From NCBI GenBank assembly GCA_038044345.1, contig JBBTAG010000061.1, positions 1 to 33,977 on the forward strand: a DNA stretch of 33,977 bases, given 5' to 3'. The translations under genes and the position numbers were made by a program. Shown one piece after another: positions 6,579-33,615 of the stretch. A model generated the notes under the pieces. It was not told where the DNA came from. It did no database searches and saw only the letters and a list, made by a program, of their open reading frames with translations. Each line of letters opens with the position of its first letter. Position 1 is the first letter of the stretch. This DNA is from Nanobdellota archaeon. Lineage in GTDB: Archaea; Nanobdellota; Nanobdellia; Pacearchaeales; GW2011-AR1.

Positions 6579-9500
6579 TTATATTTTTTGAATGAATCCC
6601 TTCCTTGGCTTGAATATATCTCCCGATTTTGATAATTGTGATAACGAATCTTCCAATTCTATGGGCGTCATTTTTCCTTCAATTGCCTTTTCCAGTTCTT
6701 CTATGGGGATTAATTTACCAAGTCTGGACTCGAGTTGTGCTATTGTTTCTCTTACAACTAATATTTTGCTTCTTTTTCCCGCACTAATGCCCGAAGTTAT
6801 TCTGTCGATGTCATAGGTTTTTGTTTCTTCATCATAACCGACTTGAGTTAGCGATACTTTCAAGAGTTCAATGGCTTTAATGGCGTCTTCTCTTTTAACT
6901 TCGTTTCTAAGATGCATCTTAGCATGTGCTTCCGATAGCCTTATAATTCCCTCTAGTTGTCTTGCAGTTATTGCTATTGGTTTTATTGTTGATTCTGAAC
7001 CAGTTGATTGACCTCTCAATTTAACATAAAAGTTTTTTATTTCTTCAATGGCTTCGTCAGTGAGTTTCGGTTTAAATTTTCTTTTTGCGTATGAGATATA
7101 TTTTCTAAGAAGTTTTGGATTTATTGTGTCTCTAACTACCTCTTGTTTGTGTTCTTCCAATACATGGGTTGCTATAGCTTCATCCTGAACTTTGTTTGGC
7201 ATGTCTTTGATGACGAAGATGACGTCAAATCTGCTTAATAATGCTGGAGAAATATCAATTTGTTCTGGGATTGGAACATAAGGGTTGAAACGACCGAGTT
7301 TGGGATTTCCTGCAGCAAGAACGGTTGTTTCTGCTCTCAATGTTGCGTGGATGTTTGCTTTTGAGACAGTGATTGTGTTGTGGAGTATTGCTGCTTGTGA
7401 AATGAATGAGTGATTTGGTTCTATAGTAACATCATAAACCCAATTTTCATCTTCATTTTTTATGATTTCAATTCCAGAAACACGCTCCCACCCAATATCT
7501 TCTGTAAATTGTCTTAAATATTCCTTATTTTCTTCTTTTTTTATTTTGGGAAAAGCTTTTTTTAATAAACTTCGTGAAAATCCAAAGATATTTTTTCTTT
7601 TTTGGTGGTCAGAAATTATATTATAAATTTTATACTTTCCTATACTTTCTATTTTTTCTTCTTTTAGAATTTCTATTATTCTGTTATTAAATTGTTTTGG
7701 GATAACATTTTTTATTTGCCTTTTTATCTTTTTGTTTTGAATATAGTAGGAGATGATTTCATTTTTTTCTTCTGTAACAAAGCCTATATACTTTTGGAAT
7801 GAGAGAATATTATCATAATCTGTTATTCCTACTCTGAAATACTCTCTGTCTGCTGTTATGGAACTTCTTATTCTAAATCTTAGAAGTAAATCTTGTATTT
7901 GTTCAGCGAGACGCTTACTTTTAGTTTTATATCCTATTCTTATCGTCCTTTCTTTTTTGGAGACATATCCATCTCCTTCAAAAAGTGCAGATAGCATTTT
8001 GGCGATATCTTCAGATTTTCCTTTCATTGCCCACAAGGGTATCTGCTTTTCGCCAGATAATTTTAGTATTTCAGGAGATGTTTCTTTTAAGAAGCTGGCC
8101 AGTTCTGTTGAAGTGTATCTATAGCTCCAACGTGTACCATAGTGATCTATGCGTGCTTGTTTGTATGGTGCGATGTTAAATGTATTTTTCATTAATTGAT
8201 TGAAATCGTTAAGAACTCTTACATCTTTGTTAACAAAATTGATTCCAATAAATTTTTTCCTATTTATCTCGCGTGAACCTTCCGCTATAAAGTAACCTAT
8301 AATTTTAAATAATTCTGGGCCATTTTTGACTGGAATATTTATATGAATTTTAGCTCTTTCATTAATTTGCTGCGGAAGAAAGAGTTGTTCTTTTCCTTCT
8401 ATTGGCGAATAAAGTGGTATTGGAATAGGATCTCCAATTATCATCTCATCTGCTCTCTTTGTTGAAATTTTTCCATCTTTCACTGTAAATACTGGATGTT
8501 CTGGAGTAACTATTATTTCTCGCCCATGTGAGAATTTTATTTTTATAAATTTATCAAATGCTTTATGTTTACTTATTCTATTTATTTTGGTTTTATTAAT
8601 TGTTTTAAAATCAGTTGTTAAAACTTCGAGTTGATTGTATGGCAGGATAAAACAATCTTTACCTTCAATTATCTTTTCCTTATTTTCTTGAAGTAGTTTT
8701 TCAACTATTTCTCCAATTTTTACTTCTGAGCCATCTGCGAGGGTTATAACTGTATCATGATGGTAACATTGTTGCTCCATGGCTTCATGCATTGTGCTTC
8801 TATCTTGTTCAGTCATTTTTTCAATTTCATCAATACAAACAGTGCCTTTATTTGCAAGAACCATTGCTCCGGCTTCTAGACTCCAACCGCGTAAAAATTC
8901 ATCTTTAATGACTGCTGCTGTGAGACCTGCAGCAGTTGCCGCTTTTCCAGAAACGTAACGTCCTTTTGGAGCAATTGCAGATATGAACTTTAGCATAACT
9001 GATTTTGCTACTCCAGGATCACCTACAAGAAGAATGTGTATATCGCCTCGAGAAGACCCACCATCTGATTTTAATTTTTTTACTCCACCAAATAATTCTA
9101 AAAGAACGGCCTCTTTTATTCTTTCAAATCCATATATACTTGGAGCAATGCTGCTTGATAGTTTGTAATATACATTTGGGTCTGCTGCCAATTCTAGAAT
9201 TTGTTCAATAGCTTCTTCGTCAATATTTAAGTCCTCAAATGTTTCTTCTAAAGGAATTATATTATTTGCTTCTATTGCTATATCATATCTTGTGGAAATT
9301 GAACCAGTTTTTAACGGTATGGGGACTTCTTTTAAAACTCCAAATATCTTTACTTTGCTTCCAGGTGTAGTTCTTTCTTCCATTTTTGGATCAACAAGAT
9401 CTTCTTGCAGGAAGACATTGATTCTACGTGGCTGTTCTCCACCTTCAAGAGAATCTGGAGATTCTTCGATAACAAGACGTTGAGTGTCAACCATTTCTTT

Positions 9501-9998
9501 CGAAATTAATCTAAATGCTGATTTCCATCCGCAGGTACATCTGCTTGGTTCTCTGAATTTGTTATCAATTTGCAATACTGAAAGCAAGGCTCCGCAGTTT
9601 GGGCATTCAAATTTTGCATTGACAACTTGTGGTCGAACGTCGGAGGCTTGCCTAATTATTCCTTCTATCCAGAGCATTTGGTCTAGGTGCTTAGATCTTA
9701 TTTCTCTTATTTTTATTGCAACCGATTTTGGCAGATCAGTTATTCTTACTCGGATATTTTTGCCTAATCCAGAGTCATCAAGAGCATTTTCTAGGACTGC
9801 AAATGTCTGTTGAGGATTTTCAAGAACTTCTTCTGATAAACTTGGTGAATGTTCAGCCAAATGTTGAAATGGTATGTATATTACCCTTTCCCCAGTTCTG
9901 ATTGATTGACTAATTTCTTTCTTGTATGCATTAAAGAAATTTTTTGCTTCTAAGAGCATTTCCTCTTGTTTTTTTTTCTTGGGCAACACTGATTCCAT
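6579..9998 (-). CDS. mcm: MCM replicative helicase containing one intein
   Basis: Zn motif CPNCG...CTCG, Walker A GDPGVAKS, Walker B CIDEIEKM, EAMEQQ|intein|TITVSKANI, sensor-1 AAGNP, Arg finger SRFD. The ATG at 9998 is 20 nt from a TATA-like box at 10019-10026; the track start at 10013 is TTG. Confidence 0.92.
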   Translation of the reverse strand: MESVLPKKKKQEEMLLEAKNFFNAYKKEISQSIRTGERVIYIPFQHLAEHSPSLSEEVLENPQQTFAVLENALDDSGLGKNIRVRITDLPKSVAIKIREIRSKHLDQMLWIEGIIRQASDVRPQVVNAKFECPNCGALLSVLQIDNKFREPSRCTCGWKSAFRLISKEMVDTQRLVIEESPDSLEGGEQPRRINVFLQEDLVDPKMEERTTPGSKVKIFGVLKEVPIPLKTGSISTRYDIAIEANNIIPLEETFEDLNIDEEAIEQILELAADPNVYYKLSSSIAPSIYGFERIKEAVLLELFGGVKKLKSDGGSSRGDIHILLVGDPGVAKSVMLKFISAIAPKGRYVSGKAATAAGLTAAVIKDEFLRGWSLEAGAMVLANKGTVCIDEIEKMTEQDRSTMHEAMEQQCYHHDTVITLADGSEVKIGEIVEKLLQENKEKIIEGKDCFILPYNQLEVLTTDFKTINKTKINRISKHKAFDKFIKIKFSHGREIIVTPEHPVFTVKDGKISTKRADEMIIGDPIPIPLYSPIEGKEQLFLPQQINERAKIHINIPVKNGPELFKIIGYFIAEGSREINRKKFIGINFVNKDVRVLNDFNQLMKNTFNIAPYKQARIDHYGTRWSYRYTSTELASFLKETSPEILKLSGEKQIPLWAMKGKSEDIAKMLSALFEGDGYVSKKERTIRIGYKTKSKRLAEQIQDLLLRFRIRSSITADREYFRVGITDYDNILSFQKYIGFVTEEKNEIISYYIQNKKIKRQIKNVIPKQFNNRIIEILKEEKIESIGKYKIYNIISDHQKRKNIFGFSRSLLKKAFPKIKKEENKEYLRQFTEDIGWERVSGIEIIKNEDENWVYDVTIEPNHSFISQAAILHNTITVSKANIHATLRAETTVLAAGNPKLGRFNPYVPIPEQIDISPALLSRFDVIFVIKDMPNKVQDEAIATHVLEEHKQEVVRDTINPKLLRKYISYAKRKFKPKLTDEAIEEIKNFYVKLRGQSTGSESTIKPIAITARQLEGIIRLSEAHAKMHLRNEVKREDAIKAIELLKVSLTQVGYDEETKTYDIDRITSGISAGKRSKILVVRETIAQLESRLGKLIPIEELEKAIEGKMTPIELEDSLSQLSKSGDIFKPRKGFIQKI
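7377..8768 (-). mobile_element. intein (464 aa) with LAGLIDADG homing-endonuclease domain, inside mcm
   Basis: Starts with Cys (CYHHDTVITLADG) and ends HN, followed by the +1 Thr. Block B is TPEH. The two LAGLIDADG motifs are IIGYFIAEGS and LSALFEGDGYV. Removing it restores AMEQQ-TITVSKANI. Confidence 0.88.
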
Positions 9999-10088
9999 TA
10001 AATTTGAGCGCAAGGGAGATTTAAATGGTTTATTGTTTTATGTTACACTTGTTTAATGTTGGGTTGTTATTTGAGAATGGCATTTTAT

Positions 10089-20488: not shown

Positions 20489-20881
20489 TTATTCTAGGAT
20501 GTTTATCAGTTCTTCTGTTGTAAAAACTCTGATTGAGGACTGCTGCTTTAGATGCGGGTCGTTTGACCAAATTGGAAGATTAAGAGATAGTGAAAGTGCA
20601 AGATAGGGAATATCTTTTTCATCTATGAAATCTTTAAATTGCTTAAACAACGGAGAGAAATCGGATTCTTTAATGAAAGATACGTGTTGTTTCAATGTTT
20701 CTTTGGTTTTATCAAAAGATATTTTTGATTTTTTTTCGATTTCTGATTTATATTTTGCCAATTCACCAAACGCAAATGAAGGAGAGAAAAGCTTTATGTT
20801 ATGCAGTTTAACAAGTTCGGAGGCAGAAGTTTTAGGATTTACCAAAGAGAATAAAATATTGGCATCTGCCACTAATTTCAT
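20489..20881 (-). CDS. vapC: PIN-domain toxin (VapC-like)
   Basis: N-terminal VADANIL acidic residue and C-terminal WSNDPH. 130 aa. Sits immediately after the antitoxin stop (TAAATG junction). Confidence 0.75.
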   Translation of the reverse strand: MKLVADANILFSLVNPKTSASELVKLHNIKLFSPSFAFGELAKYKSEIEKKSKISFDKTKETLKQHVSFIKESDFSPLFKQFKDFIDEKDIPYLALSLSLNLPIWSNDPHLKQQSSIRVFTTEELINILE

Positions 20882-21130
20882 TTACAATAAACCCTCTTTT
20901 TTCAATCTTGCATGCCCTTCTTTTTTGATTTTTCTTCCTAATTCTACTGTCCAGTCTGTAAATCCAGATTCATTTTCTTCCTTTAGTTTTGCCAGCAACT
21001 CTTGTTTGAGCGAAAGTTGTTTAACTCTGTCTTCAACTAATTTGCGAATAAATGCAGACCAATTCATTTCTGGGAATTGTCTCATTTTGCTGCGTATTTC
21101 TTCGGGAATCGATAAAGTTATGCTTACCAT
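20882..21130 (-). CDS. ribbon-helix-helix-like antitoxin (VapB-like)
   Basis: VSITLSIPEEIRSKM...NWSAFIRKLVED pattern. ATG at 21130 (track start 21145 is TTG). Confidence 0.6.
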   Translation of the reverse strand: MVSITLSIPEEIRSKMRQFPEMNWSAFIRKLVEDRVKQLSLKQELLAKLKEENESGFTDWTVELGRKIKKEGHARLKKEGLL

Positions 21131-21151
21131 TGTAAATTTATTCAATACTGA

Positions 21152-23724: not shown

Positions 23725-24228
23725 TTATTTAGCTTGCGCAGTTATAGAACCTGAAGACTGAAGATCCAAAGCAGAACCTGTTTTTGTATAGGTTACTACA
23801 ACATCTCCTCTGAAGGCTCCTTGAGCAACGTCACTAGTACACGTCATAGAAATCTTTCCAGATTTTACATTTGCTGCAATAGCTGCTGTACCTGCTCCCG
23901 TTATAGCAGTAGCACCGACTGTTGTTGGTGCATTTGGTATGCCATCACTATCTCCGCAACCAGATATACTGATTCTACTAATAGTTAGTTGTTCTCCAGC
24001 ACCATTGTATATTTCCATTTCAACTTTAGCTGTCCCAGCAAGTCCTGAAGTTACAACTGCTCCTTCTGGACTAAAAGGTTGATTTATGACAAATTTATCA
24101 GATACAAGCTTACCAGGGCTAAAAACACCATAGTATGCTAGAACTCCTATCGCAATAATAGCAATCAAGATAGCCCATCCATAGGTCATCAAGAACTCCA
24201 TTGCCGCTTGTCCTTTTTTATTTTTCAT
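23725..24228 (-). CDS. type IV pilin-like protein (probable major pilin), class III signal peptide
   Basis: MKNKKG|QAAMEFLMTYGWAILIAIIAIGVL. Gly/Ala/Thr/Ser-rich body. Strong GGAGG 5 nt upstream of the ATG. Own promoter and terminator. Confidence 0.75.
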   Translation of the reverse strand: MKNKKGQAAMEFLMTYGWAILIAIIAIGVLAYYGVFSPGKLVSDKFVINQPFSPEGAVVTSGLAGTAKVEMEIYNGAGEQLTISRISISGCGDSDGIPNAPTTVGATAITGAGTAAIAANVKSGKISMTCTSDVAQGAFRGDVVVTYTKTGSALDLQSSGSITAQAK

Positions 24229-24324: not shown

Positions 24325-25266
24325 TTAAGAACAGGTTGCGACGTTGTATATGATTTTATGTGCATCATCTAAAAGCAAGTTAGCTGGGGCATTTGTTCCA
24401 CTTACTGTGCAAAATGTCGCTGGATTTGTCAAATCAAAATAAATATGATCCACCATAGGTCTTCCCACATAGACGGTTAAGCCTTGCGAGTTAAAGGTGT
24501 TTATGTTGACTAAGGATTCAACACCATATGGACTTTCTGCCGCTAAGTTGCCTTTAAGTCTGTCTATAAAACTAGGCGCTTCGGTTGATGCAATGTAATA
24601 TGAGTTTTCTAAATGAAGAGAGAGGTTTTTCAAATCGGTATTGGAGAGAGTATATGGGGATTTGGAATACTTATTTGGAATTTTTCCTGCTGTGTTAAGG
24701 AGGTAAACTGGATCTTCAAATCTTTCTATTGGTATGTATGCTTTGACTATCAGAGTTTTATTCCAATAGGCGAGATTTGATTTGTCACTCATTGTTAAAT
24801 TAGCTGTCAATATAATTGCAATGTTCCAGGGATCTTCCTGAGTCATGTTCAGTTTGGCACCTGTTATGTTTATTTCAATATTCATTTGCTTAGCATCTGT
24901 TTGCGTCGAGCTTAGAAAGTCAGAGAATTTTATTCCATCATATACATTGCCTTGGCTTTGAGAGTAAAGGGTTCCATTGAAAAAACCTTCTGATGCGAGT
25001 TCCTCCGGGTTTTCAATGTATCTTTTTGAATCAACTACTTTTTTTTCAAATAGAAATATTGTTCTGAATGTTGAGACATACATCTGTCTTTCTAGGTCTT
25101 TTTCAACGGATGAGAGGAAAGAATTCATTGTAGAAACTCTTTTTTGAACCGATTGTCTGTATTCTGCCTGCAAGTAAAAGGTTGATGACACTAATAATAG
25201 GGATAGTAACATAATTACTATTATTGTGAAGAAAAATCCTTTTTTGTTCTTGATGTTTAAGACCAT
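24325..25266 (-). CDS. pilin-like protein (minor pilin candidate), class III signal peptide
   Basis: MVLNIKNKKG|FFFTIIVIMLLSLLLV. 10-nt overlap with the upstream gene. Confidence 0.65.
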   Translation of the reverse strand: MVLNIKNKKGFFFTIIVIMLLSLLLVSSTFYLQAEYRQSVQKRVSTMNSFLSSVEKDLERQMYVSTFRTIFLFEKKVVDSKRYIENPEELASEGFFNGTLYSQSQGNVYDGIKFSDFLSSTQTDAKQMNIEINITGAKLNMTQEDPWNIAIILTANLTMSDKSNLAYWNKTLIVKAYIPIERFEDPVYLLNTAGKIPNKYSKSPYTLSNTDLKNLSLHLENSYYIASTEAPSFIDRLKGNLAAESPYGVESLVNINTFNSQGLTVYVGRPMVDHIYFDLTNPATFCTVSGTNAPANLLLDDAHKIIYNVATCS

Positions 25267-27893
25267 GTTCTTATTTGAATATCTAATTTTGTTAAAAATG
25301 GTATTCCAGAAATAGATGTGGTTTCTGCTCCTAGATTGTCTTCTGTAATTTTTGAATCTATCTTTCCATCACCATCGAAATCAAGTATGGATAGAAGATC
25401 GTAGGCTGCCTGCTGCAATGCGTCATTCGGATCGCAATTCGGAATGTTACAGCCAGTGTTTGAATACTTGCAGTTATTTGAACCAGAGTAGGACGCTGGG
25501 ATTTTCAGCGTTGAGGAAGTATCATCAGAGAAAGAAATACTCCAGTTGCATCCTTCTGCTGAAGCTACAATTGTTGTATTGTATGAGGAAATATTCTTTA
25601 TTATAGTGTAAATTATTTTATTGTACTCAGAACCCGATGAAGTGTTTGTTGCAGAGACACCAGTTGTCAATGTGATATTGTTTGTGCCTAATGAGTTCAA
25701 TGCTGAAACTGGAATATTTATTGAATATGGGTCTCCAAGTGTTGAGAAGTCTGAGCCATACTCGCTAAGATTATATATTGGAACTTCGTTTGCGCTTACA
25801 ACGGAAGTCCATCTTGGGCCTGAATATGATGCGACTTTAGCATCCAATATTTGTGAATTTGGTGGAATAGTAAAGTTACCGTTTGTAGAATTGGCGAACT
25901 TTTTCTCTGTATTTAAAATTAATCCGTATGGATTTGGTTCGTTAACAATTCCAAATTGTATATATGAGTCAGAGTATAACTCTGTAGAAATTTCAGAACC
26001 CGCTATGGCTGTTTGTTCACGATATGTTACTTTTAAAATATAGGACGATATATTTTTATAAATATTTTCTAATTCTTCGACATTTGAGCTGTGGTAATAT
26101 TTGCCTCCGGTCATATTTGCAATTTCTTCTAGAAGTTGACTTGCTTTATTGCAGTTTCCTACTAATCCGAAACCAATTGTGAAAATTGTAATGTCTTGGT
26201 CTCTTTTTGAACGATTAGCTGAATAAATGGCGTTGTTAATAGGATCTAAGCACTTATCATCATTACATCCCTCATAAACGCACGAACCGCCACCACCCTG
26301 AAAATCACAGTATCCATCGCAACTTTTTGTTCCGTATATGCTAGAATTACTTGTGCAGGAACCATCGGCACAATGAGTTGGGAGTCCATCAGTCATTAAA
26401 ACTATGAATTTTCTTTTTGGTGTGCTTGGAATTGTACTTGAATTTAAAATATCATATCCTCTATTGATTGCGCAGGCAAGACAGGTTTTTTCTTTTCCTT
26501 GTTGAGTATAACTATCTATTGCAGTTATAATAGATGTTGGATCACTTGGATTTACAATACTTGATTCAATCTTATCATCGAATATCCATATTGGCCAGAG
26601 TCTTGGACCGGTGACATTAAATATAGAATTTACAAATGTTTTATCCAGGCATTTGGCCAGAGAGGTTTTCCTGGCGTCTGGATTTAAGGCTAAGTTATTA
26701 CAATCTATAGCGGCACTACCTTGAGATGTATCATCATTTATTGCCTTCTTCATACTACCAGACCAATCTGTGACCAGAACTATGTCTGCATCACTTGATG
26801 ATGTTTTTCCAAATGCATCTAAAAATAATCTTATTGGAATTGTCTTTTTGTTTAAATCGGTGTAATCAATCAATGGACTTATGTCACTATTTGGAATTGT
26901 CAAAACTGTTTCTCCAATATGCGTTTGATTAAAAATTGTAGTGTTGCCTATCTTTAGAACCAATGGGAGGGATACTGAGCTATTATAATGGATATATGCG
27001 TCTATAGTGTTTAGTTCAGTTGGAATATAGAAGCCGTCGTAAATATTAATTATCCCCCTTATTCCTGAAAAATATTTTTTATTTTCAATTTCATAAATGC
27101 TTGTGCTGTTGAAGTTTATTTTAATGAACCCTCCGCTGATACGCAGCTTTTCTCCATTTATTCCTCTTAATGAAACTAAATTGTTTCCTGAATGAAAATC
27201 TGTTGTAGGTATGCTATATTTTATTGGTTGAAATTCTGATACTGATTTTTCGTAATTGCCTTGAAGGACTTCATTAACATAGATTGAGAAATTTATGTTT
27301 GTTGCTATCTCAACTTCTGCCAATTGGATATTACCTATGTAGTTTATAGGCGCGGTTATATTTCCATCTCCAGTATATCCTCCAAAGAAATAATATTTTG
27401 TTTGGCTATTGCTTGATAAAAATGCTCTTGCTGAATGACCAGAAACATTTTCACCTTCTCCTCTGATAGCAGTTATTTTTTGCCTTGTAACATCAACATT
27501 TTTAGATTCTTCAAGGGATGTTACGTTTTTTGAAGCTAACAATGTGTTTCCGAACCAAATGCCTATATTTTTATTGCTTGGGACATCGATTAGCATTATT
27601 TGAGACAGAATTATTGCTTTTGTTCTATTTGTATAATAGAATTCTCCAATTTGTTCTATGACTGGTTTATTTAAGTTGACAATTGCTCCTTCCGCTATCC
27701 ACTCTTGGACTTGCAAATTGTTAACTTCTCCTATCTTCAAGTTAGACATAGTTATTAGGAGGTCATAATGAATCTTATTTGTGGGCTTTTGATAGTTTAT
27801 TACCGGGACTGCGATTATTAAAAGAGCGAGGATTATAGTCAAGGCTATTATTGCGTCAATCGTGAAAAAAATTCCCTTCTTTTTTATTTCCAT
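25257..27893 (-). CDS. large pilin-like vWA-domain protein (putative tip adhesin)
   Basis: MEIKKKG|IFFTIDAIIALTIILALLI class III signal. MIDAS DWSGS in DIVLVTDWSGSM, then LMTDG and IFTIGFG. Cys-rich insert between them. Confidence 0.8.
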   Translation of the reverse strand: MEIKKKGIFFTIDAIIALTIILALLIIAVPVINYQKPTNKIHYDLLITMSNLKIGEVNNLQVQEWIAEGAIVNLNKPVIEQIGEFYYTNRTKAIILSQIMLIDVPSNKNIGIWFGNTLLASKNVTSLEESKNVDVTRQKITAIRGEGENVSGHSARAFLSSNSQTKYYFFGGYTGDGNITAPINYIGNIQLAEVEIATNINFSIYVNEVLQGNYEKSVSEFQPIKYSIPTTDFHSGNNLVSLRGINGEKLRISGGFIKINFNSTSIYEIENKKYFSGIRGIINIYDGFYIPTELNTIDAYIHYNSSVSLPLVLKIGNTTIFNQTHIGETVLTIPNSDISPLIDYTDLNKKTIPIRLFLDAFGKTSSSDADIVLVTDWSGSMKKAINDDTSQGSAAIDCNNLALNPDARKTSLAKCLDKTFVNSIFNVTGPRLWPIWIFDDKIESSIVNPSDPTSIITAIDSYTQQGKEKTCLACAINRGYDILNSSTIPSTPKRKFIVLMTDGLPTHCADGSCTSNSSIYGTKSCDGYCDFQGGGGSCVYEGCNDDKCLDPINNAIYSANRSKRDQDITIFTIGFGLVGNCNKASQLLEEIANMTGGKYYHSSNVEELENIYKNISSYILKVTYREQTAIAGSEISTELYSDSYIQFGIVNEPNPYGLILNTEKKFANSTNGNFTIPPNSQILDAKVASYSGPRWTSVVSANEVPIYNLSEYGSDFSTLGDPYSINIPVSALNSLGTNNITLTTGVSATNTSSGSEYNKIIYTIIKNISSYNTTIVASAEGCNWSISFSDDTSSTLKIPASYSGSNNCKYSNTGCNIPNCDPNDALQQAAYDLLSILDFDGDGKIDSKITEDNLGAETTSISGIPFLTKLDIQIRTWS

Positions 27894-28360
27894 ATGTATA
27901 TGTTTAACATTGATGATTTATTTTTGTAAATTACCATTCTTGATATGAAGAAAAGATTGTTTGGGTCATTGTATTGTTTGCCCATACAGTATGGCAAGCT
28001 TGCTGGCATGGAATCTGAAAAATTGAAACAAAAATCGTATTTTGTGTGCATAAGTGAACGCTGTTCTTCATAATTTATGATGCTTAAGTTTTTTAATTTG
28101 TCCTCATCTATTTTGTTATTCGACAAAATTCCAGGCACTATGACATCATCCTTATTCCAGTTTTTGGGATAACCTTCTGAAAGAAGGATATCAGCAACGG
28201 CATTTCCATCGTATTGCATTGCATTTAAAATATCTTCACTTTCTGCTTTATAGTTTATTGAATAAAAAAAGAGAAGTGAAAGTGCTGCTACAAAGATAAC
28301 TATTCCTATCATTAAATCAAATGACCAGGCTTGTCCATTCTTCCTTTTATTTTTTACCAT
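27884..28360 (-). CDS. pilin-like protein (minor pilin candidate), class III signal peptide
   Basis: MVKNKRKNG|QAWSFDLMIGIVIFVAAL. 10-nt overlap with the downstream vWA gene. Confidence 0.6.
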   Translation of the reverse strand: MVKNKRKNGQAWSFDLMIGIVIFVAALSLLFFYSINYKAESEDILNAMQYDGNAVADILLSEGYPKNWNKDDVIVPGILSNNKIDEDKLKNLSIINYEEQRSLMHTKYDFCFNFSDSMPASLPYCMGKQYNDPNNLFFISRMVIYKNKSSMLNIYIWK

Positions 28361-28432: not shown

Positions 28433-29152
28433 TTAAGATTTTGGTAAACTTGAGGAGCTTTTTGAAATAGTTATTCCTTTATTTCCAATGTCTAATTTAT
28501 ATATTTTGTCTGAATGATTTGTCCCGCGCATTTTCAATATTTCGATAAAGCGTTCTCTTTTGTCTTTGTTTCTTAAAAAATAAATTTGAATGATTGAATC
28601 TGATTCAAATTCAATTGCCTTTGTCTGCGCCTTATCGCTAAGACTTTCTTCCGAAGGATTTAATTCTAATGTTAGAAGGGAGGTGCAATTCCATTTTCTA
28701 ATCATATTGAATAGATTTAGGGCAGCTTCCCTTTTTGTCAATTCGTCTTCAAAAAGAAGGGCAAACGAAGTTATGCTGTCAATTACTAAACGGGATATTT
28801 TTTTGCTGATAATTGTGGTTTCAATTGAACCTCCGCCTTCTTCAAGCATTGTTTTAACTTTGGCCGGGGCGTATTCTAAAAATGTAAAAAGACCTTTTTT
28901 TTCATAATCTGCGAGATCCCAGCCGAACTCCAGCATGTGCTGATAAAATTGCTGTTTATTTTCTTCAAAAGTAACAAGGAGACATTTTTCTTTTCTTTTC
29001 ATGCAATTGACGAGAAACTGAGTTGCAAATATAGTTTTTCCAGAACCCGGGCCGCCGACAATGAGATTGGTTGAACTATTTTCAAAACCGCCTTCAACTA
29101 GTTTGTCAAAATTAGAGATTCCGAATGGGACTCTATTTTTTAGTTTATGCAT
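28433..29152 (-). CDS. KaiC/RecA-superfamily ATPase (ArlH/FlaH-like)
   Basis: Walker A GGPGSGKT, Walker B-like RLVIDSI, single KaiC-like domain. The ATG at 29152 is 21 nt from a TATA-like box at 29174-29181 (track start 29173 is TTG). Confidence 0.75.
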   Translation of the reverse strand: MHKLKNRVPFGISNFDKLVEGGFENSSTNLIVGGPGSGKTIFATQFLVNCMKRKEKCLLVTFEENKQQFYQHMLEFGWDLADYEKKGLFTFLEYAPAKVKTMLEEGGGSIETTIISKKISRLVIDSITSFALLFEDELTKREAALNLFNMIRKWNCTSLLTLELNPSEESLSDKAQTKAIEFESDSIIQIYFLRNKDKRERFIEILKMRGTNHSDKIYKLDIGNKGITISKSSSSLPKS

Positions 29153-29218
29153 ATGTTTATTTGTAAAAAGCAATATAAAAATCTATCTACGAAAGATTTT
29201 TTTTCATTTATCGTTATA

Positions 29219-29379: not shown

Positions 29380-30390
29380 CTAAGAAAATAATGTTAATAC
29401 AAATTTTGACAGAATTAATTGAATTAGGAAAAATATGCTTATGCTTATTATTGCTACTGGAATTATATAATTGATTCCGCTTTTTTCTTCACCTTTGTTT
29501 ACAATACCTATTACCAGTGAAGACAGTACAGAGATTACTATTAAGTATATGACAGCAAAATAATTTATAAATGCTGTTGTGATGTTTATCTTTCCCATTG
29601 TAAATGGAAGATTGGCTGTGGCGGTAGTGTCAATTTCAGGCACACTTGACATGATGGTGGTTATCGTTTTTACTAAAATAGAAGAAAGACCGAATAGAAC
29701 TGGTGCGCCGACGGCAACTGCAAAAAATACAAAGATAACGTACATTAAGACATTGGAAGCTGCTCTTTTTTCAACGAATGCTCTTTCTCGCATGTTCATT
29801 GCTGTTTCTTCCAGAAGCACGGATAAATTGCCTCCAGAAGCGATGCCTGTAATTATAAGTGCGAGCGTCTTCTTTATTTTTTCTGATTTTATGCGTTCAC
29901 CCATTTCATATAATGCAAGGGTTATTTCCTTTCCAGTCATAATATCTTTGCCTAGACGCAGAATTTCTTCATCGAGTGGAGCAAATTCTTTTCTTGAGCT
30001 GACTAAGAGTGCCTTGTCGATGGTCATGCCAGCTCTTAAATTGGCTGCCATAAGTTCGACGAAATCTGGAAAGACATCTTCTATTTTTTTTATGCGCTGG
30101 GTTGCACGATATTTTTCTCTATAAATTATATAGGCGTTTGTTGATATTAAAACTGCGACTAATATTAAGAGTGATGAGATTATCTTTTGTGTAATAATAT
30201 AGTTCAATGCGGCAAGGAATATTGAGATGCCTATTAGCAGTATGCTTATCAGTAATCTCTTCTTTTTCTTTTTTACAGCGTCTGGCAAATGAGTAGTTTT
30301 AATTTCCTGCTTTTTCTTCTCCAGCAATTCTTTTTCTTTTCTAACTCTACTTTCCAATTCTTCTTTTTTTAATTGTGCTTTTGTTTTCAT
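29380..30390 (-). CDS. T2SSF-domain pilus platform protein (TadC/ArlJ C-half-like)
   Basis: FPDFVELMAANLRAGMTIDKAL T2SSF signature, polytopic. ATGA overlap with the upstream gene. Confidence 0.75.
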   Translation of the reverse strand: MKTKAQLKKEELESRVRKEKELLEKKKQEIKTTHLPDAVKKKKKRLLISILLIGISIFLAALNYIITQKIISSLLILVAVLISTNAYIIYREKYRATQRIKKIEDVFPDFVELMAANLRAGMTIDKALLVSSRKEFAPLDEEILRLGKDIMTGKEITLALYEMGERIKSEKIKKTLALIITGIASGGNLSVLLEETAMNMRERAFVEKRAASNVLMYVIFVFFAVAVGAPVLFGLSSILVKTITTIMSSVPEIDTTATANLPFTMGKINITTAFINYFAVIYLIVISVLSSLVIGIVNKGEEKSGINYIIPVAIISISIFFLIQLILSKFVLTLFS

Positions 30391-31280
30391 AGTAAGCTAG
30401 GCCTCAATGATTTCATTATGCCAAGGAACATTATTTGTATAAAAACCACGAAAAGAAAGACGGCTGCAAACATTAATTTTGAGGTTGCAGCTGAAAGACT
30501 TACCATCGATGCAATGACTGTCAAAAAAGTTATGCTTAACGCAGGGATGATTACTGCCATAAGCATGTAAAACATGAATAAAGGGTTTAATCTATTTCCA
30601 TAAGTTTGCATTTGAAGAAGTTGATCTTGTCTAAGAGATTTAATGCTTTCTCTTATAATTGTTGCAATGTTGCTTCCTGCACGCATACCATTACTTATTT
30701 GCCAAAGTGTTCTTCTGAAGAAAATAGAAGGATTTTTATCACCTATGTCTTCTAGAACTTCTTCTTGGGCGTAACCAGCGTTTATGTTTTTAACCGCTTT
30801 TTTAAATTCTAGACTTAATGATTCATAATCGGCAGCAGAAATGTTTACCATAATGTTGAAGAGGGGAATACCTGAATTTAATTGAACTAACATATCTTCA
30901 AGTCCAGGAATTAGGTTTTTTTCTATGTTTCTTTGCTTTCTTGAACTATAAAGTCTAGGATAATTTACTTGTGTGGAGTAAACAAAAATTCCAAAAATAA
31001 GGGAAATTAGAAAACTAATACCAATCATTCCAAGGAAAGCAGCATTTGGCACTGCTATTAATAGAATTGTACTTAGAACTATGAAAAGGGATGTGAAGTA
31101 TCCTAGAGCATATTTGAAACAGATGGAGATATATTCCTCTCTTGTAAGGTCAAGATCAGAATTTATCAAATATGCATTAAGTTTAGTGTCGCTTTTTGGT
31201 TTTAGAGGCAATCTTAAAAATTTTGTTCTCGTCTTTATTTTTTCTATATCTGAAAATGTAAATGGTATTTTGAATTTCAT
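30387..31280 (-). CDS. T2SSF-domain pilus platform protein (TadB/ArlJ N-half-like)
   Basis: LEDMLVQLNSGIPLFNIM... single T2SSF domain, polytopic. ATGA overlap with the ATPase gene. Confidence 0.75.
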   Translation of the reverse strand: MKFKIPFTFSDIEKIKTRTKFLRLPLKPKSDTKLNAYLINSDLDLTREEYISICFKYALGYFTSLFIVLSTILLIAVPNAAFLGMIGISFLISLIFGIFVYSTQVNYPRLYSSRKQRNIEKNLIPGLEDMLVQLNSGIPLFNIMVNISAADYESLSLEFKKAVKNINAGYAQEEVLEDIGDKNPSIFFRRTLWQISNGMRAGSNIATIIRESIKSLRQDQLLQMQTYGNRLNPLFMFYMLMAVIIPALSITFLTVIASMVSLSAATSKLMFAAVFLFVVFIQIMFLGIMKSLRPSLL

Positions 31281-33103
31281 GTTTTTATTGAAAGTATTGA
31301 ACTTATATCATTGTTTTTTATGTGATTAGCTAATAGTTCCTGGTTTTTATAATATAGGTTAAGAACTTTTCCAAAGTCATTTAGGCTTCTTATGTTATTT
31401 TTAATCATCCAAGATAAAATTCTTCTCTTTTCTGCCATGTCTTTTTCAATTTCTTCTTGTCCCATACCTGTGTTTCTTTGCAGCGATTCAAAAAACTTTT
31501 GACTTTCGCTGTGCTTGATTAGTTTGTCTTCTTCTGGCAACCAACGATAAAGTATGTTTGATCTTGCCTGGTCTTTTTCTGCATCAAATTCAGCGATTTG
31601 CAATATTCTTCTAATCCCCTTTTTTCTGTCACGAAACATTACTATATTAAGATTTACGGCTTTTAATAAGTTTGGGGGGACGTCTAATGGTGGGTTTACC
31701 AAACGAGAAATGGTTTCTGGAGCAGAATCTGCGTGGACAGTGGCATAAACTGAGTGTCCAGTATGCATTGCTTCGAATAAAACCATTGCTTCTTCTTTTC
31801 TTCTCATTTCTCCTAGAACAATTCTATCCGGCCTCATACGCAATGAATTGACGAGAAGGTCAAGCATACTGACTTCTCCTTTTCCTTCTGGGTTTGGAGT
31901 TCTTGTGACGAGAGGAGTCCAATATAAGAAATCTGGAAGCATTAATTCTCTGGTGTCTTCTATGCTTATTATTCTTTGGTTTGGGGGGATGAATGGGAGA
32001 CAGGCGTTTAGGAAAGAGGTTTTACCTGAAGCAGTTCCTCCTGAAAAGAGAATATTCATTTCGAATTCAATGGCAAGCCATATTAACGCTGCAGTTTCAA
32101 GGTCGCAGGTTTTATTGTTAATTAAATCTATTATTGTGTAAGGGTCTCGAGCGAATTTTCTTATTGTAATTGTGTTCCCTTTTGTATCTACAGGATAAAG
32201 AACAGCGTTTATTCTGTCTCCAGTCAATAAATGAGCATCTAGCAGCGGACTGAGCACAGTTATTTGTTTTCCGACGCGTCTTGCAATTATGTTGGAATAA
32301 TTTAAAATATCTTCTTCTTGTTCAATTTTCATATTAGTTGTCAGCCAACCGTATTTTTTGCTGTAAACTCTTATCGGCTCTTTGGCAGAAGAGATGACAA
32401 TTTCTTCTAAATTTGGATCATTTATTAAGAATTCTATGTCGCCCAAGCCGAGCATGTCTTGGATTAATTTACCGATTAAGAATTGCTTTACTTCTTCATC
32501 AAGATTTGGAAGCTTTGCTTGGATAAGATTTGTGGCATCCTCAAGGAATCTTTTTTTAATTGATTCGAAAAATTCAGGATTAATAAGTTCTTTCATCGTG
32601 ATGTTTGTTAATGATATCAGGTCGTGTCTTACATCATCTAGAAGCATTGAAGTTGCAAGGTCTATTTTTGGAACAAATAAATTGTAATAAACACCTAAAT
32701 CGTTTCTTATTATGGAAACTTCTACTTTTGCTCCATCGACGTTTATTTCATATTTTTCTAAGACGCCTATTTTTTTCTGCATAAGAGTTTTTTCTTGGTT
32801 TTCCGATTTTTTGATGTTTGTGGATTGTTTTTCAGATTTATTTAAATGGTGATGGTGTTTTTGATTAATTGCAGTCTTAGGTTCAGTTGTGTTTTGGATA
32901 ATGTTTTGTTTTGGCATATGTGATGGCAATTCAGGCAGGCTTTTGCCACCTAGAAGTCTATTTCTTTCTCTCAGAATAGGCACTTTTTGAGGATTGTTTA
33001 AATTACCTAATTTTTCCGAGAGCAATTGCTTTTCTTTTTCAATGTCTTCCTCACTTAAACTAGGGACATCTTTTTCTTTTTTTATTGTTTTTTTCTTTTT
33101 CAT
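31277..33103 (-). CDS. type II/IV secretion-family ATPase (ArlI/PilB/VirB11-like) with a low-complexity N-terminal extension
   Basis: Walker A GGTASGKTS, Asp box IISIEDTRELML, Walker B RPDRIVLGEMRRKEE, His box TGHSVYATVHA. Confidence 0.88.
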   Translation of the reverse strand: MKKKKTIKKEKDVPSLSEEDIEKEKQLLSEKLGNLNNPQKVPILRERNRLLGGKSLPELPSHMPKQNIIQNTTEPKTAINQKHHHHLNKSEKQSTNIKKSENQEKTLMQKKIGVLEKYEINVDGAKVEVSIIRNDLGVYYNLFVPKIDLATSMLLDDVRHDLISLTNITMKELINPEFFESIKKRFLEDATNLIQAKLPNLDEEVKQFLIGKLIQDMLGLGDIEFLINDPNLEEIVISSAKEPIRVYSKKYGWLTTNMKIEQEEDILNYSNIIARRVGKQITVLSPLLDAHLLTGDRINAVLYPVDTKGNTITIRKFARDPYTIIDLINNKTCDLETAALIWLAIEFEMNILFSGGTASGKTSFLNACLPFIPPNQRIISIEDTRELMLPDFLYWTPLVTRTPNPEGKGEVSMLDLLVNSLRMRPDRIVLGEMRRKEEAMVLFEAMHTGHSVYATVHADSAPETISRLVNPPLDVPPNLLKAVNLNIVMFRDRKKGIRRILQIAEFDAEKDQARSNILYRWLPEEDKLIKHSESQKFFESLQRNTGMGQEEIEKDMAEKRRILSWMIKNNIRSLNDFGKVLNLYYKNQELLANHIKNNDISSILSIKT

Positions 33104-33615
33104 TGTGATAGTATTATTTCAGGGTCTCCAAATTGAGGATAATACATGCTTGCTAAATTGCCGCTTTCCAATATTTTTGCCCACTCCGTAGCAGTTTCTC
33201 TTGGAATATGAAAAACTTTGGATATGGATGCAATTTTCAGATGTTTTTTTTCTTGTAAAATTCCGTATAATACATCTATGTCTGTTTGTTTTTTTTCGTG
33301 AGTATAGTATTTTTTAGTAATGTAAAGGTTAATTATTTCTTTTCTAAGGTCGATTTTTTGTTTTAATATCATAAAAACAGTTCCAAGAATTAGAAACATC
33401 CATTCGAGCACAATAAACATCTCTGAGAAGAATGGAAAAACTGCGTTGTTCTGATTTTCTGGAATTTTTTTAATTGAAAGACCGGAAATGGAATTTGTTC
33501 CTGCAGATTTTGAGTTGTCATTTAAACTGATAGTTAAATAAATGGCTCCGTGTACAACTGATAATATGAAAATTACAAATAGAACGATTCCAAAGTGGTT
33601 TTGTTTTTTTTCCAT
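33100..33615 (-). CDS. two-TM membrane protein with a C-terminal wHTH-like domain, first gene of the assembly operon
   Basis: TMs at about residues 8-28 and 65-85. C-terminal LKIASISKVFHIPRETATEWAKILESGNL. ATGA overlap with the ATPase gene. Confidence 0.55.
   Translation of the reverse strand: MEKKQNHFGIVLFVIFILSVVHGAIYLTISLNDNSKSAGTNSISGLSIKKIPENQNNAVFPFFSEMFIVLEWMFLILGTVFMILKQKIDLRKEIINLYITKKYYTHEKKQTDIDVLYGILQEKKHLKIASISKVFHIPRETATEWAKILESGNLASMYYPQFGDPEIILSQ

What the first reader, a model, noticed from the sequence alone, without database searches (positions are those of the whole stretch)
25257..27893. 878-aa pilin-like protein carrying a complete vWA/MIDAS domain interrupted by a Cys-rich insert
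The N-terminus MEIKKKG|IFFTIDAIIALTIILALLI is a class III (prepilin-type) signal, so the protein should be incorporated into or onto the filament. Residues ~368-620 (about nt 26034-26792) form a vWA domain with MIDAS DWSGS, LMTDG and IFTIGFG. Between the last two motifs lies a roughly 40-aa insert with 8 Cys (HCADGSCTSNSSIYGTKSCDGYCDFQGGGGSCVYEGCNDDKC, about nt 26250-26372). I count 23 N-x-S/T sequons in the protein. Bacterial TadG and PilY1/PilC-type tip adhesins also combine pilus association with a vWA domain, so this looks like an archaeal analogue or homologue of a metal-dependent tip adhesin.
Basis: partly seen in the sequence, partly recalled or inferred. Interest (0 to 1): 0.75.

Follow-up and report, generated by a model that had tools for sequence, protein, structure and literature searches.

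The report
Archaeal pilus-locus vWA adhesin-like protein
This gene from a tiny symbiotic-type archaeon (Nanoarchaeota) encodes a large surface protein with a metal-dependent "sticky" vWA domain, sits in a conserved type IV pilus operon, and is a good candidate for the molecule these cells use to grab surfaces or hosts, though that is predicted rather than shown.

Summary
ORF 25257-27893 (-) encodes 878 aa with one N-terminal hydrophobic helix, a vWA domain (residues 367-623; Pfam above threshold; AlphaFold2 and Foldseek agree) and a full MIDAS (D376, S378, S380, T470, D502). It has 23 sequons. The Cys-rich insert has 7 Cys, not 8.

The gene is unannotated in GenBank. It belongs to a family found in 360 species-level genomes, nearly all labelled Pace-, Woese- or Nanoarchaeota. 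The gene is almost always flanked by two smaller genes whose N-termini are related to its own. An assembly ATPase, a split platform, a KaiC-like ATPase and a UPF0333-type pilin lie nearby.

N- and C-terminal modules are constant and family-specific. The vWA is the variable part. The Cys insert sits at a hot spot that carries ConA-like lectin domains in longer relatives.

Best reading (about 0.55): a modular minor-pilin-like adhesin presented by the pilus, working like S. sanguinis PilB or Caulobacter CpaL/TadG. It is not a member of the TadG or PilY1 families. Prepilin processing, tip location and ligand remain untested. I rate it a new variant of a known kind, interest 0.6.

The parts
25257..27893 (-). 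g7: 878-aa vWA protein (GenBank MEK6850553.1, annotated 'hypothetical protein')
   Evidence: ORF; exact match in NCBI; more than 222 homologues; 360 species genomes
27873..27893 (-). Residues 1-7, MEIKKKG: short basic leader ending K-G, the putative prepilin-peptidase site
   Evidence: Position -2 is K/R in 49/50 and position -1 is G/A/S in 50/50 orthologues. Cleavage not tested.
27792..27872 (-). Residues 8-34: the only hydrophobic helix, with invariant D13 (+6), invariant A17 and P30 (45/50)
   Evidence: Hydropathy scan; AF2 helix 12-34; conservation; profile similarity to the N-termini of g6 and g8
26796..27791 (-). Residues 35-366: family-specific N-module (helical region 41-101 and beta-sandwich 109-358)
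   Evidence: AF2 pLDDT mostly 85-95; no Pfam family; mean pairwise identity over residues 1-366 is 48%
26025..26795 (-). Residues 367-623: vWA domain
   Evidence: Pfam PF00092; AF2; Foldseek hits to PilB, Mfa5, integrin I-domain and LapA vWA
26754..26768 (-). MIDAS DxSxS (D376, S378, S380)
   Evidence: D in 46/50, S in 47/50 (+3 T), S in 42/50
26484..26486 (-). MIDAS Thr (T470)
   Evidence: T in 41/50
26388..26390 (-). MIDAS Asp (D502, in LMTDG)
   Evidence: D in 41/50
26250..26375 (-). Residues 507-548: Cys-rich insert (7 Cys) nested directly after the MIDAS Asp strand; clade-specific; low model confidence
   Evidence: The same site carries lectin domains in longer relatives.
25260..26024 (-). 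Residues 624-878: family-specific C-module (beta-rich, jelly-roll-like), with a DxDxDGKID Ca-binding-like motif at 838-846 (nt 25356-25382)
   Evidence: AF2; weak Foldseek match to BcsB carbohydrate-binding domains; a profile finds 656 proteins, and in all 150 listed the domain is at the extreme C-terminus; weak EF-hand hits in 3 of 50 orthologues
27884..28360 (-). g6: 158-aa pilin-like protein (KNG|QAWSFD...); its stop overlaps the g7 start by 10 nt
   Evidence: adjacent to g7 in 71/82 loci
24325..25266 (-). g8: 313-aa pilin-like protein (KKG|FFFT..., no acidic residue in the helix); its start overlaps the g7 stop by 10 nt
   Evidence: adjacent in 76/82 loci
23725..24228 (-). g9: 167-aa candidate major pilin, KKG|QAAMEF (+1 Gln, +5 Glu), UPF0333/DUF361 type
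   Evidence: motif as described for M. maripaludis pilins (PMC3875500)
28433..29173 (-). g5: KaiC/ArlH-like ATPase
   Evidence: Pfam PF06745 E=1.9e-55; NCBIfam
29380..31280 (-). g4 and g3: two T2SSF platform genes (split platform)
   Evidence: Pfam PF00482
31277..33103 (-). g2: T2SSE-family assembly ATPase
   Evidence: Pfam PF00437; NCBIfam FlaI-like and TadA-like, both below cut-off
33100..33615 (-). g1: 171-aa membrane protein of unknown function, conserved at the head of the machinery module

Best explanation
g7 is a large, modular, minor-pilin-like surface protein of a type IV pilus in a Nanoarchaeota (Pace-/Woesearchaeota-type, DPANN) archaeon. The pilus has a split platform and resembles the Epd/Tad type.

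Proposed mechanism, all inferred:
1. The short basic leader (MEIKKKG) is removed by a prepilin peptidase.
2. The remaining hydrophobic helix, with its invariant Asp at +6, packs with the related helices of g6 and g8. These three translationally coupled gene products form a priming or cap complex.
3. The g9 pilin polymerises under that complex, driven by the g2 ATPase, the g3/g4 platform and the g5 KaiC-like ATPase.
4. This places the constant N- and C-modules of g7 as the carrier and the vWA domain as the exposed effector.
5. The MIDAS (D376, S378, S380, T470, D502) holds Mg2+ or Mn2+ and completes its coordination with an acidic group on a ligand, such as a host envelope protein or another surface.
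6. The element nested right after the MIDAS Asp strand tunes specificity. Here it is a disulfide-rich 42-aa insert. In relatives it is a ConA-like lectin domain.

Shown: the fold, the motifs, the family, the synteny and the location of variability. Inferred: processing, filament incorporation, tip position, metal binding and adhesion.
For: Fold and site:
- Pfam VWA scores above its threshold.
- The AF2 model has mean pLDDT 82.
- Foldseek top hits include the S. sanguinis bimodular pilin PilB (7BA2/7B7P, E about 2e-10), the type V pilus tip protein Mfa5, LapA vWA and the CD11b I-domain.
- The MIDAS reads DSSTD in 39/50 orthologues.

Extracellular character:
- There is one N-terminal hydrophobic segment only, 16 Cys, and a sequon density 5-10 times that of cytoplasmic proteins in the window.

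Signal-like N-terminus:
- [KR][GAS] precedes the helix in 49-50 of 50 orthologues, and D13 and A17 are invariant.
- The N-termini of g6, g7 and g8 are related in profile-profile comparison (probability 86-87%, E about 4e-6).

Context:
- T2SSE ATPase, two T2SSF genes, KaiC-like ATPase, g6, g7, g8 and a UPF0333-type pilin.
- g6 is adjacent in 71/82 loci and g8 in 76/82.
- A start codon lies 10 nt before the g7 stop in 77/79 loci.

Carrier/effector pattern:
- Mean pairwise identity is 48% for the N-module, 47% for the C-module and 37% for the vWA. The insert is the least conserved part.
- Long relatives carry Laminin_G_3/ConA-like lectin (E=1e-25), sialidase CBM or DUF4215 domains nested at the same site.

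Precedents:
- PilB is a pilin with a grafted vWA whose MIDAS is needed for adhesion (PMC8179133).
- CpaL/TadG is predicted to be a vWA minor pilin that forms a tripartite tip complex with two small minor pilins (10.1101/2025.02.12.637803).
Against: - The N-terminus of g7 has no Pfam class III signal match. Even g9 only reaches E=0.085.
- g7 mostly lacks the +1 Gln that g6 and g9 have. That residue may be required by EppA-type peptidases.
- The predicted helix is only about 23 residues long, ends at a conserved Pro, and is followed by a helical region rather than a recognisable pilin alpha-beta module. The pilin-module match to PilB could not be demonstrated.
- No prepilin peptidase was found among the ORFs scanned with Pfam in the window. 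A simple motif scan of the window and 83 of the fetched loci also found none.
- The MIDAS is degenerate in 11/50 orthologues, so metal-dependent binding is not universal in the family.
- Between the window and its closest relative, the vWA is the least diverged region, so there is no sign of recent diversifying selection there.
- There are no experimental data for any member.
Confidence: 0.55

Rival explanations
1. g7 is a membrane-anchored partner of the pilus machine, or a cell-surface adhesin that is never polymerised. The N-terminal helix stays in the membrane, cleaved or not. The protein then either anchors or organises the pilus base, which was the original proposal for TadG, or acts as a short-range adhesin co-expressed with the pilus.
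For: There is a single N-terminal TM-like helix. The helix is short, ends at a conserved Pro, and no canonical pilin module is recognisable. g7 lacks +1 Gln, unlike g6 and g9. No class III Pfam hit. Makarova et al. note that TadG was hypothesised to anchor the pilus (PMC4858521).
Against: A generic anchor would not need a conserved [KR][GA] junction or an invariant Asp inside the helix. It would also not share that N-terminal signature with two co-translated neighbours. An 850-aa ectodomain fits a tip position as in PilB and CpaL.
Confidence: 0.25
2. g7 is mainly a priming factor or mechanosensor rather than an adhesin. It would be required to start pilus assembly or to sense load, as proposed for PilY1 and CpaL, with the vWA as a force-sensitive element stabilised by disulfides.
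For: The triad organisation resembles minor-pilin priming complexes. The vWA is Cys-rich, and PilY1 mechanosensing depends on a disulfide. The MIDAS is lost in 11/50 orthologues although the protein is retained. The N- and C-modules are more conserved than the vWA.
Against: No downstream signalling partner is evident in the operon. Lectin domains nested in the vWA of relatives point to ligand binding. This reading overlaps with the best explanation rather than excluding it.
Confidence: 0.12
3. g7 is an ordinary Sec-exported, secreted or S-layer-associated vWA glycoprotein that merely sits next to pilus genes. A further minor alternative is a cytoplasmic ArnB-like vWA regulator.
For: vWA proteins are common. 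ArnB-type vWA regulators of archaeal type IV filaments exist (PMC4858521; Foldseek hit 8S05, E about 7e-7).
Against: The g6-g7-g8 order with overlapping reading frames is kept across the 82 loci examined, out of 360 species genomes that encode a relative. The hydrophobic segment is about 22-27 residues long and lies directly after K-G, which does not look like a Sec h-region with an AxA site. ArnB is cytoplasmic, pairs with an FHA protein and is never in pilus loci. g7 has a membrane helix, 23 sequons and 16 Cys.
Confidence: 0.05

Closest known systems
PilB of Streptococcus sanguinis (bimodular type IV minor pilin, PDB 7B7P/7BA2)
   Same: Both have a class III-type N-terminus, a vWA module with a canonical MIDAS and a predicted tip location, and both are encoded with other minor pilins. 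PilB is among the best Foldseek hits (E=1.8e-10). A lectin module (PilC in S. sanguinis) also occurs in the same system. Here it is nested inside the vWA of relatives.
   Different: PilB is bacterial and 461 aa. Its vWA follows a recognisable small pilin module. g7 is archaeal and 878 aa. Its vWA lies between two family-specific modules (35-366 and 624-878) that PilB lacks. Sequence identity is 13-15%. The match is explained by the vWA alone (TM-score about 0.44 on the target).
CpaL (Caulobacter) / TadG (Aggregatibacter) of Tad pili
   Same: Both are large minor-pilin-like proteins with a MIDAS vWA interrupted by a nested domain. Both act with two small minor pilins (CpaJ/CpaK or TadE/TadF versus g6/g8). 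Both machines have a split platform (TadB/TadC versus g3/g4). Tad pili are thought to derive from archaeal Epd-like pili.
   Different: No Tad/TadE Pfam domain is detectable in g7, g6 or g8. The C-module of g7 is confined to its own family of 656 representatives. The pilin g9 is 167 aa with a globular part, not a short Flp. Homology beyond the shared vWA fold is not shown.
PilY1/PilC tip adhesins of type IVa pili
   Same: Both are pilus-associated, have a vWA domain in some members, and have roles in adhesion, priming and mechanosensing.
   Different: PilY1 is not a pilin and is defined by a C-terminal beta-propeller. g7 has a pilin-like N-terminus, and its C-module is modelled as a beta-sandwich/jelly-roll with no propeller hits.
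Epd pilus of Methanococcus maripaludis (archaeal type IV filament 'system 1')
   Same: Both have an ATPase with two platform genes. Both have pilins of the DUF361/UPF0333 type with +1 Gln and +5 Glu, as g9 does. Both have several minor pilins and adhesin-like accessory proteins. System 1 is reported in DPANN.
   Different: No vWA pilin-like protein is mentioned for the Epd system in the passages read. The g6-g7-g8 triad and the KaiC-like gene within the operon are features of the Nanoarchaeota loci. The assignment to system 1 rests on gene content only.
Mfa5 (type V pilus tip, Porphyromonas) and integrin I-domains
   Same: All use a vWA/MIDAS as the terminal binding module of a filament or receptor (Foldseek E=5e-8 to 1e-6).
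   Different: The assembly systems are unrelated. The similarity is at the fold level only.

Membership tests
vWA domain superfamily (Pfam PF00092 and relatives) | Profile score above the curated threshold | tested here: met
   35.4 bits against a cut-off of 23.8, E=1.7e-8. VWA, VWA_2 or VWA_3 are hit in 39, 27 and 17 of 50 orthologues.
vWA domain superfamily (Pfam PF00092 and relatives) | Rossmann-like alpha/beta fold | tested here: met
   AF2 shows alternating strands and helices at 369-623. 315 PDB matches have E<=1e-3, and the listed top hits are dominated by vWA domains.
MIDAS-type vWA (integrin I-domain-like) | DxSxS + T + D residues present and conserved | tested here: met
   D376, S378, S380, T470 and D502. 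The pattern is DSSTD in 39/50 orthologues and degenerate in 11/50.
MIDAS-type vWA (integrin I-domain-like) | Binds a divalent cation and a ligand through it | not testable with these tools
   Needs recombinant protein (ITC, thermal shift, crystallography).
Archaeal type IV pilin-like proteins (class III signal peptide) | Short basic leader ending [KR][GAS], followed by about 20 hydrophobic residues | tested here: met
   K/R at -2 in 49/50 and G/A/S at -1 in 50/50. Only one hydrophobic segment, residues 8-33.
Archaeal type IV pilin-like proteins (class III signal peptide) | Match to the curated signal model (PF04021, QxSxE type) | tested here: not met
   No hit for the first 40 residues of g7. 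The neighbouring pilin g9 matches below threshold (E=0.085, 13.3 bits against 23.7). g7 has +6 Asp and mostly no +1 Gln.
Archaeal type IV pilin-like proteins (class III signal peptide) | Cleavage by an A24 prepilin peptidase | not testable with these tools
   No peptidase gene was seen in the window ORFs scanned with Pfam. A motif scan of the window and 83 of the fetched loci also found none. The rest of the genome was not available.
Archaeal type IV pilin-like proteins (class III signal peptide) | Encoded with an assembly ATPase and platform protein | tested here: met
   T2SSE and two T2SSF genes are in the same operon. This is conserved in related loci.
Modular pilins (PilB type) | A pilin module (alpha-1 helix packed on a beta-sheet) that carries the extra module | tested here: inconclusive
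   The model has helix 12-34, then helices 41-101 and a beta-sandwich. The Foldseek match to PilB is accounted for by the vWA.
TadG/CpaL | Tad/TadE-type N-terminal domain (Pfam PF13400/PF07811; accessions recalled from memory) | tested here: not met
   No such hits at E<=1 in the window protein or 49 orthologues, nor in g6 or g8.
PilY1/PilC | C-terminal beta-propeller; not a pilin | tested here: not met
   The C-module is modelled as beta-sandwich-like and its best PDB matches are BcsB carbohydrate-binding domains. No PilC family hit.
ArnB-type vWA regulators | Cytoplasmic, paired with an FHA protein and kinase, never in pilus loci | tested here: not met
   g7 has a membrane helix, sequons and Cys. 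It lies inside the pilus operon, and no FHA gene is nearby.

The most novel reading that the evidence does not exclude
The g6-g7-g8 triad is the host-recognition tip complex of Pace-/Woesearchaeota pili. The element nested at the MIDAS face (Cys-knot, ConA-like lectin, sialidase-type CBM) would set host or substrate range. The triad may also be the archaeal counterpart, possibly the ancestor, of the bacterial Tad minor-pilin set TadE/TadF/TadG. This would give uncultivated DPANN archaea a concrete, testable attachment molecule.
Probability: 0.3. Interest if true: 0.8.

Novelty: new variant of a known kind. Interest (0 to 1): 0.6.

Why it matters
How DPANN archaea of the Pace-/Woesearchaeota type attach to surfaces or hosts is unknown, and none of them is in culture. 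One groundwater study even stated that type IV pilus components are missing in DPANN genomes. Here a complete pilus operon with a vWA/MIDAS protein is found in 360 species-level genomes of this group. The window's copy is annotated 'hypothetical protein', and the named homologues carry only generic names such as 'VWA domain-containing protein'. This gives three things:
- a candidate adhesin to express and use as bait for ligands or hosts;
- a marker whose nested variable domains could be compared with host or habitat;
- an archaeal case of the 'module grafted on a pilin' strategy, which the survey read here examined in bacteria only, with a possible bearing on the origin of Tad minor pilins.

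Tried and rejected
- PDB sequence searches were uninformative. The full protein gave one weak hit (E=0.11, a BatA-like C-terminal vWA stretch). The C-module gave Tctex at E=0.04, judged chance. g9 and g8 gave nothing, and g6 gave BUB1 at E=0.056, judged chance.
- Pfam and NCBIfam gave nothing for the N- and C-modules or for g6, g8 and g1. The best NCBIfam hit for g7 was the Myxococcus gliding adhesin CglB, far below cut-off (32.7 against 200 bits). I kept it only as a curiosity.
- Foldseek of the C-module gave only marginal jelly-roll matches (best E=5.5e-4, TM 0.29). I do not claim a carbohydrate-binding function.
- Foldseek against viral structures returned mainly vWA proteins and nothing informative about the other modules.
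- hhalign found no relation between the N-terminus of g7 and that of g9.
- A regex for the GxGD[x]K motif in multi-TM ORFs found no prepilin peptidase in the loci or the window. This is a crude test.
- I looked for diversifying change in the vWA by comparing the window with its 86%-identical relative. The opposite was seen: the vWA is the least diverged part.
- An archaellum reading was rejected. g9 has no archaellin family hit at E<=0.1 in the Pfam or NCBIfam scans, no ArlF/G/CDE/X-type family was hit in the operon, and the FlaI-like score of g2 is below cut-off.
The N-module, g6 and g8 could therefore not be modelled.

Full report
**1. What is there**

The minus-strand ORF 25257-27893 encodes 878 aa. 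There is one correction: the 42-aa string at residues 507-548 (nt 26250-26375) has 7 Cys, not 8. This is still far from chance (P about 3e-7 for one window, about 3e-4 over all windows).

The 23 sequons are confirmed. A shuffle gives 14.3 +/- 3.2. Sequon density is 5-10 times that of the cytoplasmic proteins in the window. A hydropathy scan finds one hydrophobic segment only, at residues 8-33.

**2. Anatomy**

The AlphaFold2 model was built on 50 homologues (mean pLDDT 82). It shows these parts:
- helix 12-34;
- a helical region at 41-101;
- a beta-sandwich at 109-358;
- an alpha/beta domain at 369-623;
- a beta-rich C-module at 637-878.

The Cys-rich insert has low confidence (pLDDT below 50 at 514-520 and 532-539).

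Pfam VWA scores above its gathering threshold. Foldseek against the PDB returns vWA structures. The top hits include ITIH1, the S. sanguinis minor pilin PilB (E=1.8e-10), the type V pilus tip protein Mfa5, LapA vWA and the CD11b I-domain.

The MIDAS is complete: D376, S378, S380, T470 and D502. IFTIGFG is the following beta strand, not part of the MIDAS.

The C-module was modelled alone (pLDDT 75). It gives only marginal matches to the jelly-roll carbohydrate-binding domains of BcsB. It contains a DxDxDGKID motif at residues 838-846. Three of 50 orthologues give weak EF-hand hits.

**3. The family**

The window is a GenBank contig of a Nanoarchaeota MAG, and the protein is MEK6850553.1, 'hypothetical protein'.

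More than 222 homologues were found among the 8000 scored candidates. The named ones come from Pacearchaeota, Nanoarchaeota or unclassified archaeon MAGs, and at best they are called 'VWA domain-containing protein'. A scan of one genome per GTDB species found 360 genomes with a relative. Of the 80 listed, all but two are labelled Pace-, Woese- or Nanoarchaeota, Nanoarchaeia or simply 'archaeon'. The two exceptions are short contigs labelled Methanosarcinales.

Findings from the 50 full-length orthologues:
- The leader junction is conserved, with K/R at -2 in 49 and G/A/S at -1 in all 50.
- D13 (+6) and A17 are invariant, and P30 is present in 45.
- The MIDAS reads DSSTD in 39 and is degenerate in 11.
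- Mean pairwise identity is 48% for the N-module, 47% for the C-module and 37% for the vWA. The insert is the least conserved part.

A profile of the C-module finds 656 representatives in 1.84 billion proteins, 600 of them below 1e-10. In all 150 listed, the domain is at the extreme C-terminus. The module is therefore specific to this family.

**4. The insert**

The segment between the MIDAS Asp strand and the next strand varies by clade:
- In basal members it is 28-30 aa with 2 Cys.
- In the window's clade (P0001-P0004) it is 64 aa with 7 positionally conserved Cys.
- A second clade has a different 7-Cys version.

Relatives of 1000-1140 aa have the same N- and C-parts. At this same site they carry about 250 extra residues. 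These residues are Laminin_G_3/ConA-like lectin (E=1e-25), sialidase-type lectin/CBM or DUF4215 domains, with the VWA profile split around them.

The insert is thus one state of a hot spot for nested binding modules. From general knowledge of I-domains, the site lies on the MIDAS face. This was not checked on coordinates.

**5. Context**

On the same strand, in order:
- g1, a membrane protein;
- g2, a T2SSE ATPase;
- g3 and g4, two T2SSF platform genes;
- g5, a KaiC/ArlH-like ATPase;
- g6, 158 aa;
- g7, the vWA protein;
- g8, 313 aa;
- g9, 167 aa.

The same set recurs in related genomes. The g1-g5 module lies either co-directional or divergent. g6 is adjacent to g7 in 71 of 82 loci and g8 in 76 of 82.

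Both junctions in the window overlap by 10 nt (…A TGG xxx TAA over ATG G…). A start codon lies at -10 of the g7 stop in 77 of 79 loci, and it is ATG in 51. Because W877 is invariant, part of this is automatic.

g9 begins KKG|QAAMEF. That is the +1 Gln/+5 Glu pattern of DUF361/UPF0333 pilins described for M. maripaludis. JGI names several homologues UPF0333, and PF04021 matches below threshold.

The N-termini of g6 (KNG|QAWSFD), g7 (KKG|IFFTID) and g8 (KKG|FFFTII) are related to each other in profile comparison (probability 86-87%, E about 4e-6). They are not related to that of g9. g8 lacks the acidic residue.

An ATPase with a split platform is the hallmark of archaeal 'system 1' (Epd-like), which is reported in methanogens and DPANN. 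I did not do the phylogeny needed to confirm that assignment.

**6. Mechanism**

The best-supported reading is that g6, g7 and g8 form a minor-pilin-like complex that primes and caps a g9 filament and presents the vWA domain. The MIDAS cation would bridge to an acidic ligand group, and the nested element would add or tune specificity. The constant N- and C-modules with a variable vWA fit the carrier/effector logic described for modular pilins.

By analogy with GspK and CpaL, which lack the conserved acidic or aromatic residue and are placed first in the filament, g8 might be the top subunit, with g7 and g6 below it. This order is speculation.

I put 0.55 on 'pilus-presented vWA adhesin'. I put about 0.95 on the narrower statement 'extracellular MIDAS-vWA protein that functions with this pilus operon'.

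**7. Rivals**

- g7 is a non-polymerised membrane-anchored partner or surface adhesin (0.25). This is favoured by the short helix, the lack of a recognisable pilin module, the absence of +1 Gln and the absence of a class III model hit.
- g7 is mainly a priming factor or mechanosensor (0.12). This overlaps with the best explanation.
- g7 is an unrelated Sec-exported glycoprotein or an ArnB-like regulator (0.05). Synteny, topology and the N-terminal signature contradict this.

**8. Comparison with known systems**

It works most like PilB of S. sanguinis and CpaL/TadG of Tad pili. It is not a member of the TadG family, because no Tad/TadE domain is found. It is not a member of the PilY1 family, because it has no beta-propeller.

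In the literature held here, I found no description of a vWA pilin-like protein in archaeal pilus loci:
- Makarova et al. 2016 discuss vWA only as ArnB-type regulators and mention TadG.
- The 2026 survey of archaeal type IV filaments mentions adhesin-like and PilY-like proteins but not this family.
- The modular-pilin survey examined bacteria only.
- Literature searches combining DPANN, Pacearchaeota or Woesearchaeota with pili, pilin, vWA or prepilin peptidase found nothing specific.

**9. Verdict**

The finding is real, well conserved and unannotated. I rate it a new variant of a known kind: a modular pilin with a vWA adhesin module, here in DPANN archaea, with family-specific carrier modules and a nested-domain hot spot. 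Processing, filament location, metal binding and ligand are all inferred. Interest is 0.6.

Noticed in passing
window 24325-25266 and 23725-24228: The GenBank gene models for g8 (267 aa against 313 here) and g9 (154 aa against 167) start at downstream Met codons. This cuts off the conserved basic leader and part of the hydrophobic helix. The longer starts are supported by N-terminal conservation in orthologues.
   Followed up: partly
window 27884-27893 and 25257-25266: The g6/g7 and g7/g8 junctions have the same architecture. The upstream protein ends W-x-stop, and the downstream ATG overlaps the Trp codon (ATGG), giving a 10-nt overlap. W877 of g7 is invariant, and W157 of g6 is present in at least 90% of 16 aligned orthologues. 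Coding constraint and start-codon constraint may reinforce each other.
   Followed up: partly
P0063, P0069, P0110, P0112, P0040 (relatives of g7): Relatives of 1000-1140 aa carry ConA-like lectin (Laminin_G_3), sialidase-type CBM or DUF4215 Cys-rich domains nested inside the vWA, at the site of the window's Cys insert. Some representatives reach 1200-1727 aa.
   Followed up: partly
window 25257-27893 compared with L084 9962-12598: Against the closest relative (86% nt identity over the locus), amino-acid changes pile up in residues 36-108 (30% changed, nonsynonymous/synonymous codon ratio 1.3). The vWA region has unusually few synonymous and nonsynonymous changes. This might reflect recent recombination of the vWA segment or strong constraint.
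   Followed up: no
window 6579-10013 (-): The MCM helicase gene is interrupted by an intein with a LAGLIDADG homing endonuclease (Pfam Intein_splicing and LAGLIDADG_3 between the MCM P-loop and lid domains).
   Followed up: no
L003 14003-15133: In one Pacearchaeota genome, a 376-aa DsbA/thioredoxin-like gene lies just downstream of the pilin gene. This would suit disulfide formation in the Cys-rich exported proteins. No such gene was seen in the window.
   Followed up: no
L046 10001-12463 and 12468-15986: Two g7-like genes lie in tandem between g6 and g8 in one Pacearchaeota genome, the second much longer.
   Followed up: no
window 28433-29173 (-): A KaiC-family ATPase with sub-threshold similarity to the archaellum protein ArlH/FlaH sits between the platform genes and the pilin-like genes. 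It is found next to the machinery genes in most related loci that extend far enough. Its role in a non-archaellum pilus is unclear.
   Followed up: no
window 20489-21145 (-): A small gene pair (87 aa and 130 aa) between minD and the tRNA-binding-domain gene looks like a toxin-antitoxin pair. PIN-domain genes occupy the same neighbourhood in L001. It was not scanned with Pfam here.
   Followed up: no
literature: A groundwater cryo-TEM study used pili to identify cells as CPR bacteria, on the grounds that type IV pilus components are 'missing in DPANN genomes' (10.1101/2020.05.14.094862). The conserved operon found here in 360 Nanoarchaeota-type species genomes argues against that criterion.
   Followed up: partly
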